Source: an uncultured Gammaproteobacteria bacterium (GTDB lineage: Bacteria > Patescibacteriota > Patescibacteriia > CAZSQN01). From it: a stretch of DNA of 64,000 nucleotides. The stretch spans positions 11,901 through 75,900 of the forward strand of contig CAZSQN010000001.1 of NCBI GenBank assembly GCA_964609095.1. The letters are read 5' to 3'. Made by a program: the position numbers and the translations under genes. The notes beneath the pieces are model-generated. The model had not been told where the DNA came from and searched no databases. It worked only from the letters and a program-made list of their open reading frames with translations. Of the stretch, positions 38,877 to 57,098 are shown one piece after another. How positions within the stretch are numbered: the first letter of the stretch is position 1; every line of letters starts with the position of its first letter.

Positions 38877-40241
38877 TTATCCTCCCTCCGAAGTTGTTTT
38901 ACAGCAGATGTTAAGTCGTCCGCCCGGGCAATAACCCTGCAAACACTCCCCGCTGTCTATTTTTGACTGAAATTCCGCCTCATTAATCTCGGTGCATTCA
39001 AAGGAGGTTGTTTCCGTGCTTAGATCCTGACATCGGCTGCCCGCTATTTCTCTTGTGATAAGCGTTTGTTGGGCAAAGTTTATGATTGTCGCGGCTCCGA
39101 ATATTATGATAAGTCCGATAACCGCTCCGGTCAATATCTTTCTTCCTTCGTCAACCTGCTCCGCCACGCCGGCGGCTGTAAGCCACTTAAATCCGCCGTA
39201 GATAAACATAAACAGAGCCAGCGAGCCGGAAATGGCCAATATCAGCCGGACAATGTTAATGCCTACCTGTATAAGCTGTGGCAGGCCGCATTTACTAGTT
39301 TCGGTGGCGCCGCGGGTGCAGGCCTCCGGGATAAGACGGGGTAAAAAACTTCTGCCGCCTCCGGCTTCTTCGCTTCCGCCGGCTTGCTCCGGAGGAAGCG
39401 CGGCCCCGCCGCAAATATCAGGGTCGCTGGACACGCTTACAAAATTTCCATCGCCGCATTTGGTCGGGCACGCTTGGTTGCCGTCTTCATCCGGCAGCAG
39501 CGGCTGGGCAATTCCGTCGCGGCATAGGCAGCAGTTGGCGCCGCGGCGCCCGGCCTCTTCTTCCGCGCATTTTTTCGGCCGGCCGGAGCAAACGCCGGAG
39601 AAACATTCCGTATTTTCATTGCAGTTTTCTCCCCCGCTTTTTTTGTTCTCGCAGTTTCCCTGCGGCGCGCAGTATTGGCCAATAAGGCAATCTCTTTCCG
39701 CGGTACATCGGCAGATGCCGCCATCACATCTGCCGGAAGCGCACGTGTCTTCCGGTCTGCAGGCCTCGCCGACTCTTTTAGGCGGCGCGCCGGTCTCGCA
39801 AGCCCCGCCGGAACAACGGAAACCATCCGGGCAATCGCTGTTTAAGACGCATCTTCTGGCGCAGGTGCCTTCTACGCAGCTCCCGCTTTGGCATTGGAGA
39901 TTGCCTTGAGGGCAGGCGCCGCCGTCGCTTACTTTATTAACGCAAACATCATTGCTGCAATATTGGGACGGGTTGCCGCAATGGCTATCGTCTCCGCAAT
40001 CCTCGGCGCAGCTCCCATTATCGCAGGCGCCGCCAAGGCATTCCTGCCTGTTAAAGCAGCTTGAACCATCGGCTTTTTGATTAACGCAGCGGCCGCTGCC
40101 GCAGTATTGAAATGCTTGGCAATCAGTAATTGAGCCGCAATCCTGCGCCAAAGTTTTTTGAGGCAAAAATAAAATAACTCCAATAAAAATGGCAATAAAT
40201 ATGGTAAGCTTATGGCTTATAGCTTGCAGCTTATAGCTCAT
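38877..40241 (-). CDS. large pilin-like protein with an N-terminal cysteine-rich repeat domain, an embedded VirB2/TrbC-like hydrophobic domain and a Cys-rich C-terminal tail
   Basis: signal peptide; four ~45-aa repeats of 8 Cys each (DCxxxxDCxxxQYCxxGRCVNxxxDGxxCxxxxxCxSGxC); then YGGFKWLTAAGVAEQVDEGRKIL ... GLIIIFGAATIINFA as in paralogs 1-3; 454 aa. Confidence 0.65.
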   Translation of the reverse strand: MSYKLQAISHKLTIFIAIFIGVILFLPQKTLAQDCGSITDCQAFQYCGSGRCVNQKADGSSCFNRQECLGGACDNGSCAEDCGDDSHCGNPSQYCSNDVCVNKVSDGGACPQGNLQCQSGSCVEGTCARRCVLNSDCPDGFRCSGGACETGAPPKRVGEACRPEDTCASGRCDGGICRCTAERDCLIGQYCAPQGNCENKKSGGENCNENTECFSGVCSGRPKKCAEEEAGRRGANCCLCRDGIAQPLLPDEDGNQACPTKCGDGNFVSVSSDPDICGGAALPPEQAGGSEEAGGGRSFLPRLIPEACTRGATETSKCGLPQLIQVGINIVRLILAISGSLALFMFIYGGFKWLTAAGVAEQVDEGRKILTGAVIGLIIIFGAATIINFAQQTLITREIAGSRCQDLSTETTSFECTEINEAEFQSKIDSGECLQGYCPGGRLNICCKTTSEGG

Positions 40242-43173: not shown

Positions 43174-43455
43174 CTACTGGAGCTTTTCCAGGGAGTCCAC
43201 AAATCCGATTTTGACCGACACGCCGTCGGCATTCTTTTGGTATCTGTAGAATCCTTGCCTGCCGGAAAGCCGCAGTCCGCAATGGACAGCGACAAGCGCG
43301 GCAAGGCAGAGCATGGCCTTGGTCCCGCCCAGAAGAAAGGTGGGAAAGACGATGAAAAGTCCGAAGACGAAAATGCCAGAAAGGGCGAGAGCCAGCGCTT
43401 TGAGCACCGGATGCTTGATCTTCAAGCCGAAGAAATTCATATCCAGTTTGGCCAT
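43174..43455 (-). CDS. small hypothetical membrane protein
   Basis: 93 aa from MAKLDMNFF; two hydrophobic helices. Confidence 0.4.
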   Translation of the reverse strand: MAKLDMNFFGLKIKHPVLKALALALSGIFVFGLFIVFPTFLLGGTKAMLCLAALVAVHCGLRLSGRQGFYRYQKNADGVSVKIGFVDSLEKLQ

Positions 43456-43689
43456 TGTGGGCCTCCTTTGGAAGGAACTTCGTATTGCTTCGGCCTCATT
43501 GCCAAAGCGATACCAGATTATCATTTTGGGGCTCAAAAGTCAAGGGCCGTGTCTTTCAATTATAATAATTCCTTATTCTACCATTCCCAGAAGTAAGTAA
43601 ATTATCACCAGTGCGGAAGCGGGAGGATTCCCAGCCAAAGGCTGGTGGCGCCTCGGGCGCAGAACATACGCGTGGCGGTGGGGGTGAGA

Positions 43690-43785
43690 TTCGAACTCAC
43701 GATACCTTTTGGGTATATCGGTTTTTCCGCGACATCTCCGCTTCGCGGAGTGCGCGGACCCGCTCACCTCGCTTTGCGAGGATGA
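43690..43785 (-). tRNA. tRNA-like sequence: intact type-II variable arm, T-arm and acceptor 3-prime strand (CCCCACC-G-CCA, Tyr-like) but aberrant 5-prime half; possible pseudogene or non-canonical tRNA
   Basis: minus-strand RNA GGTGAGCGGG-[33-nt hairpin TCCGCG..CTCCGCGAAGCGGAG..CGCGGA]-AAAACCGATATACCCAAAAGGTATCGTGAGTTCGAATCTCACCCCCACCGCCA; no GGTGGGG 5-prime acceptor strand and no standard anticodon arm found by hand. Confidence 0.35.
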
Positions 43786-43828
43786 AGCGGGCGAGACCTA
43801 CCTAACTTCCTTGGCGGAGAGGGTGAGA

Positions 43829-43918
43829 TTTGAACTCACGATACCCTTGCGGGTATACCGGTTTTCGAGACCGGCTCTTTCAGCCGCTCAGACACCTCTC
43901 CGCCAAGTTTGTTAGGTT
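43829..43918 (-). tRNA. tRNA-Ser (anticodon CGA), type II with long variable arm, CCA encoded
   Basis: revcomp GGAGAGGTGTCTGAGCGGCTGAAAGAGCCGGTCTCGAAAACCGGTATACCCGCAAGGGTATCGTGAGTTCAAATCTCACCCTCTCCGCCA folds as a canonical cloverleaf. Confidence 0.85.
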
Positions 43919-43934
43919 AAATCCAATTTTTTCT

Positions 43935-44156
43935 TCAGTTGTCGTCTTCCTTGGCTGGATTTGTAAAATAATTCCGTTTTTCTCGCCAATGTTTTGTTTC
44001 TGTGCGCCTCGTAATAAATAAGTACCAAGGCTTATGTGCTTTTGTTGATGTTACCTCGCCGGCATTATGGGCGGTAAATCTAGCCTTTAAATCATCCGTT
44101 ATACCTATATATAAATTCTTTTTGACAATGCTCTGTAATATATAAGTGTAATGCAT
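43935..44156 (-). CDS. GIY-YIG nuclease-domain protein (YhbQ/UPF0213-like)
   Basis: YTYILQSIVKKNLYIGITDDLKARFTAHNAG matches GIY-YIG core; 73 aa from MHYTYIL. Confidence 0.75.
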   Translation of the reverse strand: MHYTYILQSIVKKNLYIGITDDLKARFTAHNAGEVTSTKAHKPWYLFITRRTETKHWREKRNYFTNPAKEDDN

Positions 44157-44198
44157 ACTCTCGTATTTCCGCACCGGAGACAATTACACCAAAGAGTA

Positions 44199-57026: not shown

Positions 57027-57098
57027 TGCGCGTGCTAGGATTCGAACCTAGAACCAGTCGTGTATAAGACGACGGCTCTACCATTGAGCTACACGCGC
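57027..57098 (-). tRNA. tRNA-Ile (anticodon TAT / UAU)
   Basis: revcomp GCGCGTGTAGCTCAATGGTAGAGCCGTCGTCTTATACACGACTGGTTCTAGGTTCGAATCCTAGCACGCGCA; anticodon stem GTCGT/ACGAC, loop CTTATAC; flanked by 15-nt inverted repeat atgacaacaaatat / atatttgttgtcat. Confidence 0.75.

What the first reader, a model, noticed from the sequence alone, without database searches (positions are those of the whole stretch)
43690..43918. Aberrant type-II tRNA-like gene next to tRNA-Ser(CGA) and a GIY-YIG nuclease gene
The 3-prime 50 nt (variable arm, T-arm, acceptor CCCCACC-G-CCA) look like a bona fide tRNA closely related to the adjacent tRNA-Ser. In the 5-prime half:
- the expected GGTGGGG acceptor strand is missing;
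- no standard anticodon arm is present;
- a 33-nt perfect hairpin is found instead (TCCGCG..CTCCGC-GAA-GCGGAG..CGCGGA).

Possibilities are a non-canonically intron-containing or split tRNA, a degenerated pseudogene, or a tRNA-derived att remnant. A GIY-YIG nuclease gene lies about 150 bp away.
Basis: partly seen in the sequence, partly recalled or inferred. Interest (0 to 1): 0.5.

Follow-up and report, generated by a model that had tools for sequence, protein, structure and literature searches.

The report
Leftover half of a replaced tRNA-Ser gene
The odd "tRNA-like gene" is the dead 3' half of an earlier serine tRNA gene, left behind when incoming DNA carrying a complete tRNA-Ser and a small nuclease gene overwrote this locus; similar tRNA-inside-tRNA scars recur in related ultra-small bacteria.

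Summary
On the minus strand, 43725-43673 is a near-perfect tRNA-Ser 3' half: anticodon-loop nt 36, variable arm, T arm, CCCCACC-G-CCA. No matching 5' half exists in the window, and two long hairpins precede it.

It is not a tRNA, an intron-bearing tRNA or tRNA-Tyr. It is a relic. Close relatives have a single tRNA-Ser directly after the O-antigen-ligase gene. This Uhrbacteria genome instead carries a ~536-nt replacement holding:
- a 73-aa GIY-YIG ORF;
- a complete tRNA-Ser(CGA) with its own leader-trailer stem;
- the hairpins;
- the 3' half of a GGTGGGG-type tRNA-Ser.

The T-loop-to-3'-end stub of a still older tRNA-Ser(CGA) lies just outside this replacement, 41 nt after the 3' half.

The same break, between nt 35 and 36 after TTG, recurs in other Patescibacteria-type assemblies. 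There a complete tRNA sits inside a decayed cognate tRNA (L018, L047, L067, L085, L025, and L087 for tRNA-Arg). Four of these share a conserved left-end motif.

The identity as a relic is well supported. The mechanism is inferred: nuclease- or recombination-driven cassette replacement, with phage T4 SegB as the closest analogue. Nested bacterial tRNA genes did not turn up in the literature library I searched.

The parts
44157..44170 (-). Probable 5' stub of the ancestral tRNA-Ser(CGA): GGAA..CGAGAG, i.e. acceptor start to D-loop
   Evidence: Homology to relatives L105, L108 and L110 runs through the leader TCTCCrGyGC and the first GGAA of their tRNA. CGAGAG then reappears at a 2-nt shifted offset, and the GIY-YIG ATG follows. 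Only 10 of about 15 nt match, so this part is tentative.
43935..44156 (-). GIY-YIG nuclease ORF, 73 aa counted from ATG 44156. It is part of the inserted DNA. Its C-terminal third diverges from the family.
   Evidence: Pfam PF01541, E=1.9e-10. It is absent between the ligase gene and the tRNA in L105, L106, L108, L109 and L110. Alignment to 78-79-aa homologues is good for residues 1-46 and divergent or truncated afterwards.
43902..43917 (-). Leader of the resident tRNA-Ser(CGA): ACCTAAC-AAAC-TTGGC. It pairs with the trailer.
   Evidence: Inverted repeat I1, 23-nt arms, 87% complementary.
43812..43901 (-). Complete, presumably functional tRNA-Ser(CGA), GGAGAGG/CCTCTCC acceptor, CCA encoded
   Evidence: ARAGORN; Rfam RF00005, 56.3 bits.
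43800..43811 (-). Trailer arm (A-GGAA-GTTAGGT) pairing with the leader. Together with GCCA/TTGGC it extends the acceptor helix.
   Evidence: I1. Such leader-trailer stems occur in only 2 of 99 ordinary GGTGGGG-type tRNA-Ser genes, and both of those are nested cases.
43758..43792 (-). Hairpin 1 (CCCGCT..CCTCGC-AAA-GCGAGG..AGCGGG)
   Evidence: MFE and centroid fold. No homologue in any fetched locus.
43726..43757 (-). Hairpin 2 (CCGCG-CA-CTCCGC-GAA-GCGGAG-ATGT-CGCGG), abutting the break in the old anticodon loop. It extends to 43758 if the closing T-A pair is counted.
   Evidence: MFE and centroid fold. Unique in the window. No homologue in fetched loci.
43673..43725 (-). The finding itself: 3' half (nt 36 to CCA) of a former GGTGGGG-type tRNA-Ser gene. 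It comprises AAA-ACCGA, the variable arm, the T arm, CCCCACC, G and CCA.
   Evidence: nhmmer profile positions 37-87, E=1.7e-9. About 47/50 identical to tRNA-Ser(UGA) genes. Reproduced in the independent Logan assemblies L134 and L135.
43631..43672 (-). Trailer of the lost GGTGGGG-type gene, with two short hairpins (GCGCC-CGA-GGCGC and CCAGCC-TTT-GGCTGG)
   Evidence: Counted from the discriminator, the trailer GCCACGCGTATGTTCT pairs 13/16 with the leader of the GGTGGGG-type tRNA that relative L109 carries at this same locus (P about 5e-4).
43602..43630 (-). 3' stub of the oldest tRNA-Ser(CGA): T-loop GAATCC to CGCTTCC-G (43630-43614), plus its conserved trailer CACTGG.. (43613-43602)
   Evidence: 27/29 identical to L105 1401-1429, which is the 3' end of that relative's intact tRNA-Ser(CGA) plus trailer.

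Best explanation
What it is (well supported). The 'tRNA-like gene' is not a gene. It is the displaced 3' half of an earlier tRNA-Ser gene: standard nt 36 to the CCA, UGA-family sequence, GGTGGGG/CCCCACC acceptor. It is one layer in a stack of relics at the tRNA-Ser locus downstream of the O-antigen-ligase gene of a Candidatus Uhrbacteria genome.

The locus has been overwritten at least twice:
- The oldest gene was a GGAAGCG-type tRNA-Ser(CGA), still intact in relatives. It survives only as a T-loop-to-3'-end stub and probably a short 5' stub.
- A GGTGGGG-type tRNA-Ser, still present at this locus in another relative, survives as the 3' half plus its trailer.
- The current working gene is the complete GGAGAGG-type tRNA-Ser(CGA).

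The current gene arrived with its own leader-trailer helix, two hairpins and a small GIY-YIG nuclease ORF.

How it arose (inferred). A break or recombination in a conserved tRNA loop was repaired by copying or capturing a donor segment that carries a whole substitute tRNA. The breaks are the anticodon loop between nt 35 and 36, and the T-loop before GAATCC. The resident gene is destroyed downstream of the break, but its function is kept by the incoming tRNA.

How it works now (inferred). The cassette probably uses the resident tRNA promoter. Its leader-trailer helix would let the new tRNA be cut out of any transcript. The relic itself most likely does nothing beyond being part of the 3' trailer.
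For: Shown:
- The sharp homology boundary falls at nt 36. The 3' half is about 94% identical to tRNA-Ser(UGA) genes, while the 50 nt upstream show no tRNA similarity. Uniform decay would not give this pattern.
- Relatives with 71-78% identical ligase have one tRNA-Ser directly after the ligase gene and no GIY-YIG. L105, L108 and L110 carry the GGAAGCG type, L106 the GGAGAGG type and L109 the GGTGGGG type.
- Pairwise alignment places window 44300-44167 on L105 1189-1322 and window 43630-43602 on L105 1401-1429. This brackets a replacement of about 536 nt.
- The window trailer pairs 13/16 with the L109 leader.
- The same break recurs elsewhere. In L018, L047, L067, L085 and L025 (tRNA-Ser) a complete tRNA lies between the two halves of a decayed cognate tRNA, split after TTG between nt 35 and 36. 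In L087 (tRNA-Arg) the split also follows TTG, there between nt 34 and 35. The loop is not duplicated. nhmmer independently puts three of the 3' halves at profile position 37 (L067's at 35) and the L067 5' half ending at position 36.
- All outer genes are damaged: D-arm deletion (L018), missing 3' anticodon strand (L067), missing 3' half (L085), 1-nt deletion (L047).
- L067, L085, L087 and L025 share an invariant left end, TT[C/A]CCGATTT - about 22 nt - AAATCGCAATCCCGT.
- Leader-trailer helices mark the inserted tRNAs. Only 2 of 99 ordinary genes have them, and both are nested cases.
- There are links to nucleases. In L129 a GIY-YIG ORF sits between tRNA-Pro and a 31-nt perfect copy of its 3' part. 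Ten of 25 GIY-YIG homologue loci have a tRNA within 250 nt. In L047 a LAGLIDADG protein gene lies next to the nest.
- Phage T4 GIY-YIG SegB recognises the T-loop motif GGTTCRANTCC in tRNA genes (PMC2330249).
Against: - The window's GIY-YIG is only 73 aa, has no DNA-binding domain and has a divergent C-terminus. It may be cargo or a decaying passenger rather than the driver.
- Most nested loci contain no nuclease ORF inside the insert.
- The 5' half of the GGTGGGG-type gene and the conserved left-end motif are absent from the window. The window is therefore tied to the nested family only by the break position and the overall architecture.
- The hairpins have no homologue in any fetched locus, so their role is unknown.
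- In L018 and L085 the inner and outer tRNAs share the same anticodon stem-loop. This is awkward for a nuclease that must spare the inner copy.
- No transcript data are available.
- The other tRNA-Ser genes of this genome could not be inspected.
Confidence: 0.78

Rival explanations
1. Classical att remnant. A phage or island with a tyrosine integrase integrated into the anticodon loop (and another into the T-loop) of tRNA-Ser. It supplied a new 3' end and displaced the old one, and the element body was later deleted.
For: tRNA 3' fragments next to tRNA genes are the standard footprint of such elements (established knowledge). A phage-type fragment of tRNA-Ser that begins in the anticodon loop exists in viral contig L152. 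T-arm-to-3'-end direct repeats 130-180 nt apart occur in L038, L045, L063, L069 and L078.
Against: The resident tRNA is not a hybrid: its 5' and 3' acceptor strands match each other and differ from both relics. In the nested loci the loop is split without any duplicated core, whereas L152 keeps the entire CTTGAAAA. No integrase gene lies in the flanks, which are syntenic with relatives. The whole insert is only about 536 nt.
Confidence: 0.1
2. No dedicated enzyme is involved. Foreign DNA taken up by these naturally competent-looking bacteria is integrated by homology-facilitated illegitimate recombination. The most conserved tRNA blocks (D-loop, anticodon loop, T-loop) act as short anchors, which leaves partial duplicates.
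For: Break points sit at the edges of the conserved tRNA blocks: after the D-loop GG, after TTG of the anticodon loop, and before GAATCC of the T-loop. This is seen in the window, L035, L036, L040, L025, L085, L045 and L063. Three different tRNA-Ser alleles occupy one locus in close relatives.
Against: It does not explain the invariant 13+15-nt left-end motif shared by four lineages with different cargo tRNAs. It also does not explain the exact, scar-free split at nt 35/36, or the leader-trailer helices specific to the inserted tRNAs.
Confidence: 0.2
3. A functional non-canonical RNA: an intron-containing, split or expanded tRNA, or a small RNA with a tRNA-like 3' end, in which the two hairpins replace the D and anticodon arms.
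For: The 140-nt stretch folds very stably (z=-6.2) into a cloverleaf-like shape with a T arm and a variable arm. SerRS does not read the anticodon (established knowledge), so an anticodon-less Ser acceptor is conceivable.
Against: - The predicted closing helix pairs GGU.GGU with ACC.GCC, which buries the discriminator and the CC of the CCA. In the proper register only 5 of 7 acceptor pairs form.
- ARAGORN and the Rfam tRNA model give no hit, and tRNA-Sec scores only 15 bits against a threshold of 47.
- No group I intron is found.
- No 5' half is found.
- The hairpins are not conserved anywhere.
- Every comparable outer tRNA in other genomes is visibly broken.
Confidence: 0.04
4. Tandem tRNA-Ser duplication followed by ordinary decay of the second copy.
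For: The 3' half and the resident tRNA share 89% identity over 37 nt (D2). GGTAGGT at 43802-43796 loosely resembles GGTGGGG.
Against: Decay would not leave one half about 94% intact and the other unrecognisable with a boundary at a single nucleotide. The 3' half matches the GGTGGGG-type genes better than it matches its neighbour. GTTAGGT is already explained as the trailer arm. The same boundary recurs in unrelated genomes.
Confidence: 0.05

Closest known systems
Phage T4 SegB, a free-standing GIY-YIG homing endonuclease in the tRNA gene cluster (PMC2330249)
   Same: A GIY-YIG nuclease gene lies beside tRNA genes. SegB's target is the conserved T-loop motif GGTTCRANTCC inside tRNA genes. The outcome is preferential inheritance or replacement of the neighbouring tRNA region. 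The oldest relic in the window is cut exactly in that motif (..|GAATCC).
   Different: SegB is 221 aa and has a DNA-binding domain, and it acts between co-infecting phages with long flanking homology. Here the ORF is 73 aa with a divergent C-terminus, the host is a cellular genome, the replaced genes leave truncated stubs, and a second break site (anticodon loop, nt 35/36) is used. Cleavage activity is untested.
tRNA-gene integration by phages and islands with displaced 3' tRNA fragments (tyrosine-integrase att sites; known sublocations are the anticodon loop, the T-loop and the 3' end)
   Same: A complete tRNA is followed by a partial 3' copy that begins in the anticodon loop or the T-loop. 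The gene's function is preserved despite the insertion.
   Different: There is no integrase, no element body and no duplicated core. The new tRNA is wholly foreign rather than a hybrid of an old 5' part and a new 3' part. In the related loci both halves of the old gene flank a complete new gene.
Archaeal tRNA disruption by a mobile element in Caldiarchaeum subterraneum: a tRNA-Thr fragment plus a recombinase-bearing 1.8-kb element (PMC3293823)
   Same: A tRNA fragment sits next to a full cognate tRNA, separated by inserted DNA. That paper interprets this as mobile-element-driven gene disruption and replacement.
   Different: That case is archaeal, has a 1.8-kb element with a recombinase gene, and retains the 5' fragment. 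Here the host is bacterial, the inserts are 0.1-0.5 kb, and the 3' fragments are retained.
Group I introns at position 35/36 of tRNA-Asn and tRNA-Asp in Patescibacteria (PMC13011429)
   Same: Same phylum and same unusual position in the anticodon loop.
   Different: Those are self-splicing ribozymes of 184-894 nt that leave a working exon pair, and they follow a U. Here no ribozyme is detected. The preceding base is G, the inserts are as short as about 117 nt, they contain a whole tRNA, and the 'exons' are decayed.

Membership tests
Canonical tRNA gene | 7-bp acceptor stem formed with a 5' strand | tested here: not met
   No GGTGGGG-like 5' strand in the window with up to 2 mismatches. The nearest candidate, GGTAGGT, gives 5 of 7 pairs and is already used by the neighbour's trailer helix.
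Canonical tRNA gene | D arm and anticodon arm with a 7-nt loop | tested here: not met
   ARAGORN and Rfam RF00005 find nothing at 43672-43811. Homology to the tRNA-Ser profile starts at nt 36.
Canonical tRNA gene | Variable arm, T arm, discriminator and CCA of tRNA-Ser | tested here: met
   Profile positions 37-87, E=1.7e-9. About 47/50 identity to tRNA-Ser(UGA) genes, with G discriminator and CCA.
tRNA with a group I intron | Group I ribozyme core between two exons | tested here: not met
   No Intron_gpI match at E<=10 in 43400-44100 or at E<=1 in the whole window. No 5' exon.
Split or BHB-intron tRNA (archaeal type) | A separate 5' half with a leader complementary to the 3'-half leader, in an archaeal host with a splicing endonuclease | tested here: not met
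   No 5' half in 64 kb. The host is Candidatus Uhrbacteria, a bacterium. The rest of the genome was not searchable.
tRNA-Sec or allo-tRNA | Match to the Sec covariance model (8/5 or 9/4 helices, UCA anticodon) | tested here: not met
   RF01852 scores 15.3 bits against a gathering score of 47, E=4.8.
Tyrosine-integrase att remnant | Identical core (the crossover loop) present at both junctions | tested here: not met
   In the nested relatives the junctions read CTTG|insert and insert|AAA with no repeat. The window fragment starts at (G)AAAAACCGAT and lacks CTT. The phage-type fragment in L152 keeps CTTGAAAA.
Tyrosine-integrase att remnant | Integrase gene or element body between or beside the repeats | tested here: not met
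   The only ORF in the 536-nt insert is the GIY-YIG ORF. The flanks are syntenic with L105 and L106: ligase, flippase, GalU, SBP.
Free-standing GIY-YIG homing endonuclease (Seg-like) | GIY-YIG catalytic domain | tested here: met
   PF01541, 41.3 bits. Residues 1-46 conserve the family's invariant positions.
Free-standing GIY-YIG homing endonuclease (Seg-like) | Appended DNA-binding domain that gives site specificity | tested here: not met
   The protein has 73 aa in total. Its C-terminal third is divergent and shorter than in the 78-79-aa homologues.
Free-standing GIY-YIG homing endonuclease (Seg-like) | Presence/absence polymorphism at the same locus in relatives | tested here: met
   Absent in L105, L106, L108, L109 and L110 at the ligase-tRNA junction.
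Free-standing GIY-YIG homing endonuclease (Seg-like) | Cleaves the empty allele near the insertion site | not testable with these tools
   This needs an in vitro cleavage assay on L105-, L109- or L110-type tRNA-Ser DNA.
IS200/IS605-like (or PATE) element | Insertion 3' of a fixed short sequence, no target duplication, subterminal hairpins | tested here: inconclusive
   In the relatives all inserts follow TTG, with no duplication and with a hairpin 4 nt from the left end. In the window only the right junction and a terminal hairpin are visible.
IS200/IS605-like (or PATE) element | TnpA (HUH) or TnpB gene in autonomous copies | not tested
   None was seen in the ORFs around the six nested loci. 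No systematic search was done.

The most novel reading that the evidence does not exclude
Patescibacteria may carry a so-far undescribed family of non-splicing 'tRNA-replacement cassettes' with these properties:
- Each cassette is a complete tRNA gene with its own leader-trailer processing helix.
- It often has a conserved left end, TTCCCGATTT-N22-AAATCGCAATCCCGT.
- It sometimes has a small homing-type nuclease gene (GIY-YIG or LAGLIDADG).
- It inserts precisely after TTG in the anticodon loop (nt 35/36 in tRNA-Ser) of the cognate tRNA gene.
- It kills the resident gene, takes over its promoter and substitutes for its function.

On this reading the window's 3' half is the footprint of one such event, stacked on an older T-loop event.
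Probability: 0.35. Interest if true: 0.75.

Novelty: new variant of a known kind. Interest (0 to 1): 0.55.

Why it matters
For annotation, the feature should be labelled as a tRNA-Ser gene fragment. It should not be called a tRNA, a pseudo-tRNA-Tyr or an intron-bearing tRNA.

More broadly, the locus shows three generations of tRNA-Ser genes at one site. This ties it to a recurring pattern in ultra-small bacteria, in which a whole tRNA gene sits inside the broken anticodon loop of its predecessor.

If this reflects a dedicated mobile cassette, it would be a new way for selfish DNA to invade an essential gene. Such a cassette brings a spare copy of the gene instead of splicing itself out. It would also give a concrete role to the many small GIY-YIG genes that sit beside tRNA genes in these genomes. 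Finally, it bears on how tRNA genes come to be split, nested or replaced.

Tried and rejected
- tRNA-Tyr. Rejected: the discriminator is G, and the best matches are all tRNA-Ser.
- Group I intron, tRNA-Sec, YrlA-like or any other Rfam family. No significant hit. The 'Plastid-psbI-rps4' hits are antisense matches to tRNA-Ser 3' halves.
- 5' half elsewhere in the window. None found.
- Hairpins as a genomic repeat family. They are unique in the window and have no homologue in 289 fetched loci or in viral contigs.
- Conserved left-end motif of the nested family in the window. Absent.
- The same motif in viral contigs. Only chance 14-mer hits, and none with the full module.
- Close GIY-YIG homologues to trace a moving cassette. 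None closer than 47-61% identity over part of the protein.
- Homologues of the downstream 93-aa membrane protein. Only the genome itself was found.
- Serine-integrase crossover. Rejected by hand, because no shared dinucleotide exists at the two junctions.
- Integron attC reading. The window's ACCTAAC...GTTAGGT fits RYYYAAC/GTTRRRY, but the other nested loci do not. It is treated as a coincidence.
- Assembly artefact. Unlikely: two independent Logan assemblies reproduce the downstream part, and the junctions are not at shared k-mers. Those contigs do, however, end inside the T arm.
Full report
**1. What is in the sequence**

On the minus strand, ARAGORN and Rfam call a normal tRNA-Ser(CGA) at 43901-43812. 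Downstream of it, in order:
- a 12-nt trailer;
- two long hairpins, 43792-43758 and 43757-43726;
- the sequence AAAACCGAT-ATACCCAAAAGGTAT-C-GTGAGTTCGAATCTCAC-CCCCACC-G-CCA (43725-43673).

A profile built from 96 tRNA-Ser genes aligns this last stretch to profile positions 37-87 (E=1.7e-9). It is about 47/50 identical to tRNA-Ser(UGA) genes of other Patescibacteria. Profile position 37 is standard nucleotide 36, so similarity begins exactly after the second anticodon base.

Upstream of that point nothing resembles a tRNA:
- ARAGORN and the Rfam tRNA model are silent there.
- tRNA-Sec reaches only 15 bits.
- No group I intron is found.
- No GGTGGGG 5' strand exists anywhere in the 64 kb.

- The coordinates miss the last 17 nt.
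- The 33-nt hairpin has an internal loop.
- There is a second hairpin.
- A further tRNA stub was overlooked.

**2. The fold is not a tRNA**

The 140-nt stretch folds very stably (-60.1 kcal/mol, z=-6.2) into a cloverleaf-like shape. Its closing helix, however, pairs GGU.GGU with ACC.GCC, which buries the discriminator and the CC of the CCA. The same GTTAGGT is the perfect partner of ACCTAAC in the leader of the neighbouring tRNA (inverted repeat I1). The hairpins have no homologue in any of the 289 loci fetched or in viral contigs. I found nothing that supports a functional non-canonical tRNA.

**3. Organism and locus history**

The downstream 93-aa protein is identical to 'hypothetical protein HYT45_04045 [Candidatus Uhrbacteria bacterium]' on a 347,787-nt contig.

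Homologues of the adjacent O-antigen ligase (71-78% identical) gave syntenic contigs. In all of them a single tRNA-Ser follows the ligase gene directly, with no GIY-YIG gene:

| Relatives | tRNA-Ser after the ligase gene |
|---|---|
| L105, L108, L110 | tRNA-Ser(CGA), acceptor GGAAGCG/CGCTTCC |
| L106 | GGAGAGG type |
| L109 | GGTGGGG type (contig ends in the D arm) |

Pairwise alignment (junctions printed) shows:
- window 44300-44167 = L105 1189-1322, which is the ligase 3' end plus the tRNA leader;
- window 43630-43602 = L105 1401-1429, which is GAATCCTCCCGCTTCCG plus the trailer CACTGG;
- window 43549-43453 = L105 1478-1570, which is the next gene's upstream region.

The window therefore carries a replacement of about 536 nt in place of the first 70 nt or so of the GGAAGCG-type tRNA. 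That gene's T-loop-to-3'-end stub survives at 43630-43614. A likely 5' stub (GGAA..CGAGAG) survives at 44170-44157.

Inside the replacement are:
- the GIY-YIG ORF (ATG 44156 to stop 43935; Pfam);
- the complete tRNA-Ser(CGA);
- the hairpins;
- the GGTGGGG-type 3' half with a 41-nt trailer.

That trailer pairs 13/16 with the leader of the GGTGGGG-type gene that L109 has at this very locus (P about 5e-4). This suggests that an L109-like gene once stood here intact.

Three generations of tRNA-Ser genes are thus stacked at one site. The finding is the middle one.

**4. The same scar elsewhere**

A scan of one genome per species for the T-arm/acceptor sequence gave 104 loci, and about 100 of them are ordinary tRNA-Ser genes. 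The exceptions are informative.

| Locus | Structure |
|---|---|
| L047 (Sungiibacteriota) | 5' half ...CTTG \| short insert with a COMPLETE tRNA-Ser \| AAA... 3' half |
| L067 (Paceibacterota) | same structure |
| L018 | same structure |
| L085 | same structure |
| L025 | three-deep nest, plus hairpin inserts in the D-loop and the T-loop |
| L087 | both outer and inner genes are tRNA-Arg(GCG) |

Features shared by these nests:
- The split follows TTG, between nt 35 and 36 in tRNA-Ser, and the loop is not duplicated.
- nhmmer independently places three of the four detected 3' halves (window, L018, L047) at profile position 37 (L067's at 35), and the L067 5' half ends at position 36.
- Every outer gene is damaged: D-arm deletion in L018, missing 3' anticodon strand in L067, missing 3' half in L085, 1-nt deletion in L047. 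The outer genes are dead and the inner ones do the work.
- The inner tRNAs carry leader-trailer helices that extend the acceptor stem. Among 99 ordinary genes only two have such helices, and both are nested cases.
- L067, L085, L087 and L025 share an invariant left end, TT[C/A]CCGATTT - about 22 variable nt - AAATCGCAATCCCGT, although their cargo tRNAs differ. Rfam knows no family for it.

The window lacks this motif. It shares the break position, the terminal hairpin abutting the break, and the leader-trailer helix of the resident tRNA.

**5. Other loop breaks and the nuclease link**

A generic search for fragments of a tRNA within 600 nt of its complete copy found 14 positive loci among 136 sources. 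Besides the anticodon-loop nests there are two other classes:
- T-arm/T-loop-to-3'-end duplicates 130-180 nt downstream, with hairpin-rich filler (L035, L038, L045, L063, L069, L078);
- 5'-end-to-D-loop duplicates upstream (L035, L036, L040).

The window's oldest layer has the T-loop break (|GAATCC) and probably the D-loop break, as in L035.

In L129 a GIY-YIG ORF lies between tRNA-Pro and a perfect 31-nt copy of its 3' part. So a GIY-YIG gene inside a tRNA-flanked insert is not unique to the window.

Of 25 loci with GIY-YIG homologues, ten have a tRNA within 250 nt. That is far more than tRNA density would predict; this comparison is my own rough estimate.

In L047 a LAGLIDADG-domain protein is encoded right beside the nest.

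The closest characterised analogue is phage T4 SegB. It is a free-standing GIY-YIG endonuclease in the tRNA cluster, it recognises the T-loop motif GGTTCRANTCC, and it drives inheritance of the T4 tRNA region (PMC2330249).

**6. Mechanism**

Shown:
- The feature is a truncated gene fragment with a single-nucleotide-sharp boundary.
- It lies in an insertion/replacement relative to five relatives.
- The boundary position recurs in independent genomes.

Inferred:
- A break or crossover in a conserved tRNA loop was repaired with, or captured, a donor segment carrying a full substitute tRNA.
- The cassette relies on the resident promoter.
- Its leader-trailer helix allows processing in any transcript context.

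Open: whether the 73-aa GIY-YIG protein is the driver. It has no DNA-binding domain, and its C-terminal third departs from the 78-79-aa family. It could be a decaying passenger.

Alternatives I weighed:
- Tyrosine-integrase att remnants. Disfavoured: there is no duplicated core, no hybrid tRNA and no integrase. A true phage-type fragment, L152, keeps the whole loop.
- Homology-facilitated illegitimate recombination at conserved tRNA blocks. Plausible for some events, but it does not explain the conserved termini.
- An IS200/IS605-like non-autonomous element. The insertion after a fixed TTG, the lack of duplication and the subterminal hairpin fit, but no transposase was seen.

**7. Comparison with the literature**

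Group I introns at nt 35/36 of tRNA-Asn and tRNA-Asp are known in Patescibacteria (PMC13011429). That paper does not mention tRNA-Ser, nested tRNAs or GIY-YIG, and no ribozyme is detectable here.

An archaeal case of a tRNA fragment beside a full tRNA, separated by a recombinase-bearing element, is described for Caldiarchaeum (PMC3293823).

Full-text searches for nested or fragmented tRNA genes in CPR bacteria returned nothing else.

**8. Verdict**

The finding is real, but it is not a tRNA. It is a tRNA-Ser 3'-half relic (confidence about 0.8).

Taken alone it is a variant of a familiar kind of scar. Its context lifts the interest to moderate:
- the relics are stacked;
- the resident tRNA is wholly foreign and has its own processing helix;
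- a GIY-YIG ORF lies inside the insert;
- an apparently undescribed recurrent tRNA-in-tRNA architecture exists in related bacteria.

Noticed in passing
L067 3239-3190 (-), L085 1271-1324 (+), L087 7426-7477 (+), L025 6697-6746 (+): An invariant motif, TT[C/A]CCGATTT - about 22 variable nt - AAATCGCAATCCCGT, lies directly after the TTG of a broken anticodon loop. It precedes a complete inner tRNA (Ser or Arg). There is no Rfam match and no copy in viral contigs.
   Followed up: partly
L025 6600-7070 (+): Three-deep nesting of tRNA-Ser genes. There are also hairpin inserts in the D-loop (GGCCG|...|AAGTGG) and the T-loop (TTCG|...|GAATCC) of the outer copies.
   Followed up: partly
L035 829-1172, L038 5765-6018, L045 128-351, L063 5421-5650, L069 3068-3351, L078 305-587, L036 4152-4387, L040 4162-4580: Complete tRNAs (Val, Arg, Ser) have perfect or near-perfect copies of their T-loop-to-3' end 130-180 nt downstream, or of their 5' end-to-D-loop 113-310 nt upstream. 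The copies are separated by GC-rich, hairpin-rich filler. Several fillers also contain an inverted copy of the T arm.
   Followed up: partly
L129 2377-2799 (+): A GIY-YIG ORF (2501-2677) lies between tRNA-Pro(UGG) and a 31-nt 100% copy of the tRNA's 3' part, with a hairpin just before the copy. The contig is 445 kb (Ga0115549_1000001).
   Followed up: partly
L047 516-1580 (-): A 355-aa protein with HTH_3 and LAGLIDADG_3 domains is encoded immediately upstream of tRNA-Ser(GCU) and the nested tRNA-Ser pair.
   Followed up: partly
L087 7641-8000 (-): An ORF ending right next to the nested tRNA-Arg has a C-terminal sequence that, from memory, resembles the coiled-coil tail of large serine recombinases. 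Pfam gave no hit on the 120 aa available.
   Followed up: partly
window 43917-43911 and 43806-43800 (-): The arms flanking the resident tRNA-Ser(CGA), ACCTAAC and GTTAGGT, fit the integron attC consensus RYYYAAC / GTTRRRY in the correct polarity. The other nested loci do not fit it. This is probably a coincidence.
   Followed up: partly
window 57027-57098 (-): A tRNA-Ile with anticodon TAT (UAU), which is an uncommon way for bacteria to read AUA. It scores 72.8 bits with the Rfam tRNA model.
   Followed up: no
L134 1-30 and L135 1-10: Independent Logan assemblies of the same strain end inside, or just after, the T arm of the relic. This hints at a repeat (another GGTGGGG-type tRNA-Ser in the genome) or at population variation at this point.
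   Followed up: no
L068 125-290 (-): In a Steroidobacteraceae-labelled MAG, a tRNA-Ser 5' part running through the anticodon loop (..CTTGAAAAC) is followed 15 nt later by a complete tRNA-Ser(UGA). No 3' relic is present. This is the mirror image of the window's arrangement.
   Followed up: no
window 38877-40241 (-): A cysteine-rich 454-aa protein lies next to an SBP_bac_1 gene. The syntenic genes in L105 carry T4SS_pilin (PF18895) hits.
   Followed up: no
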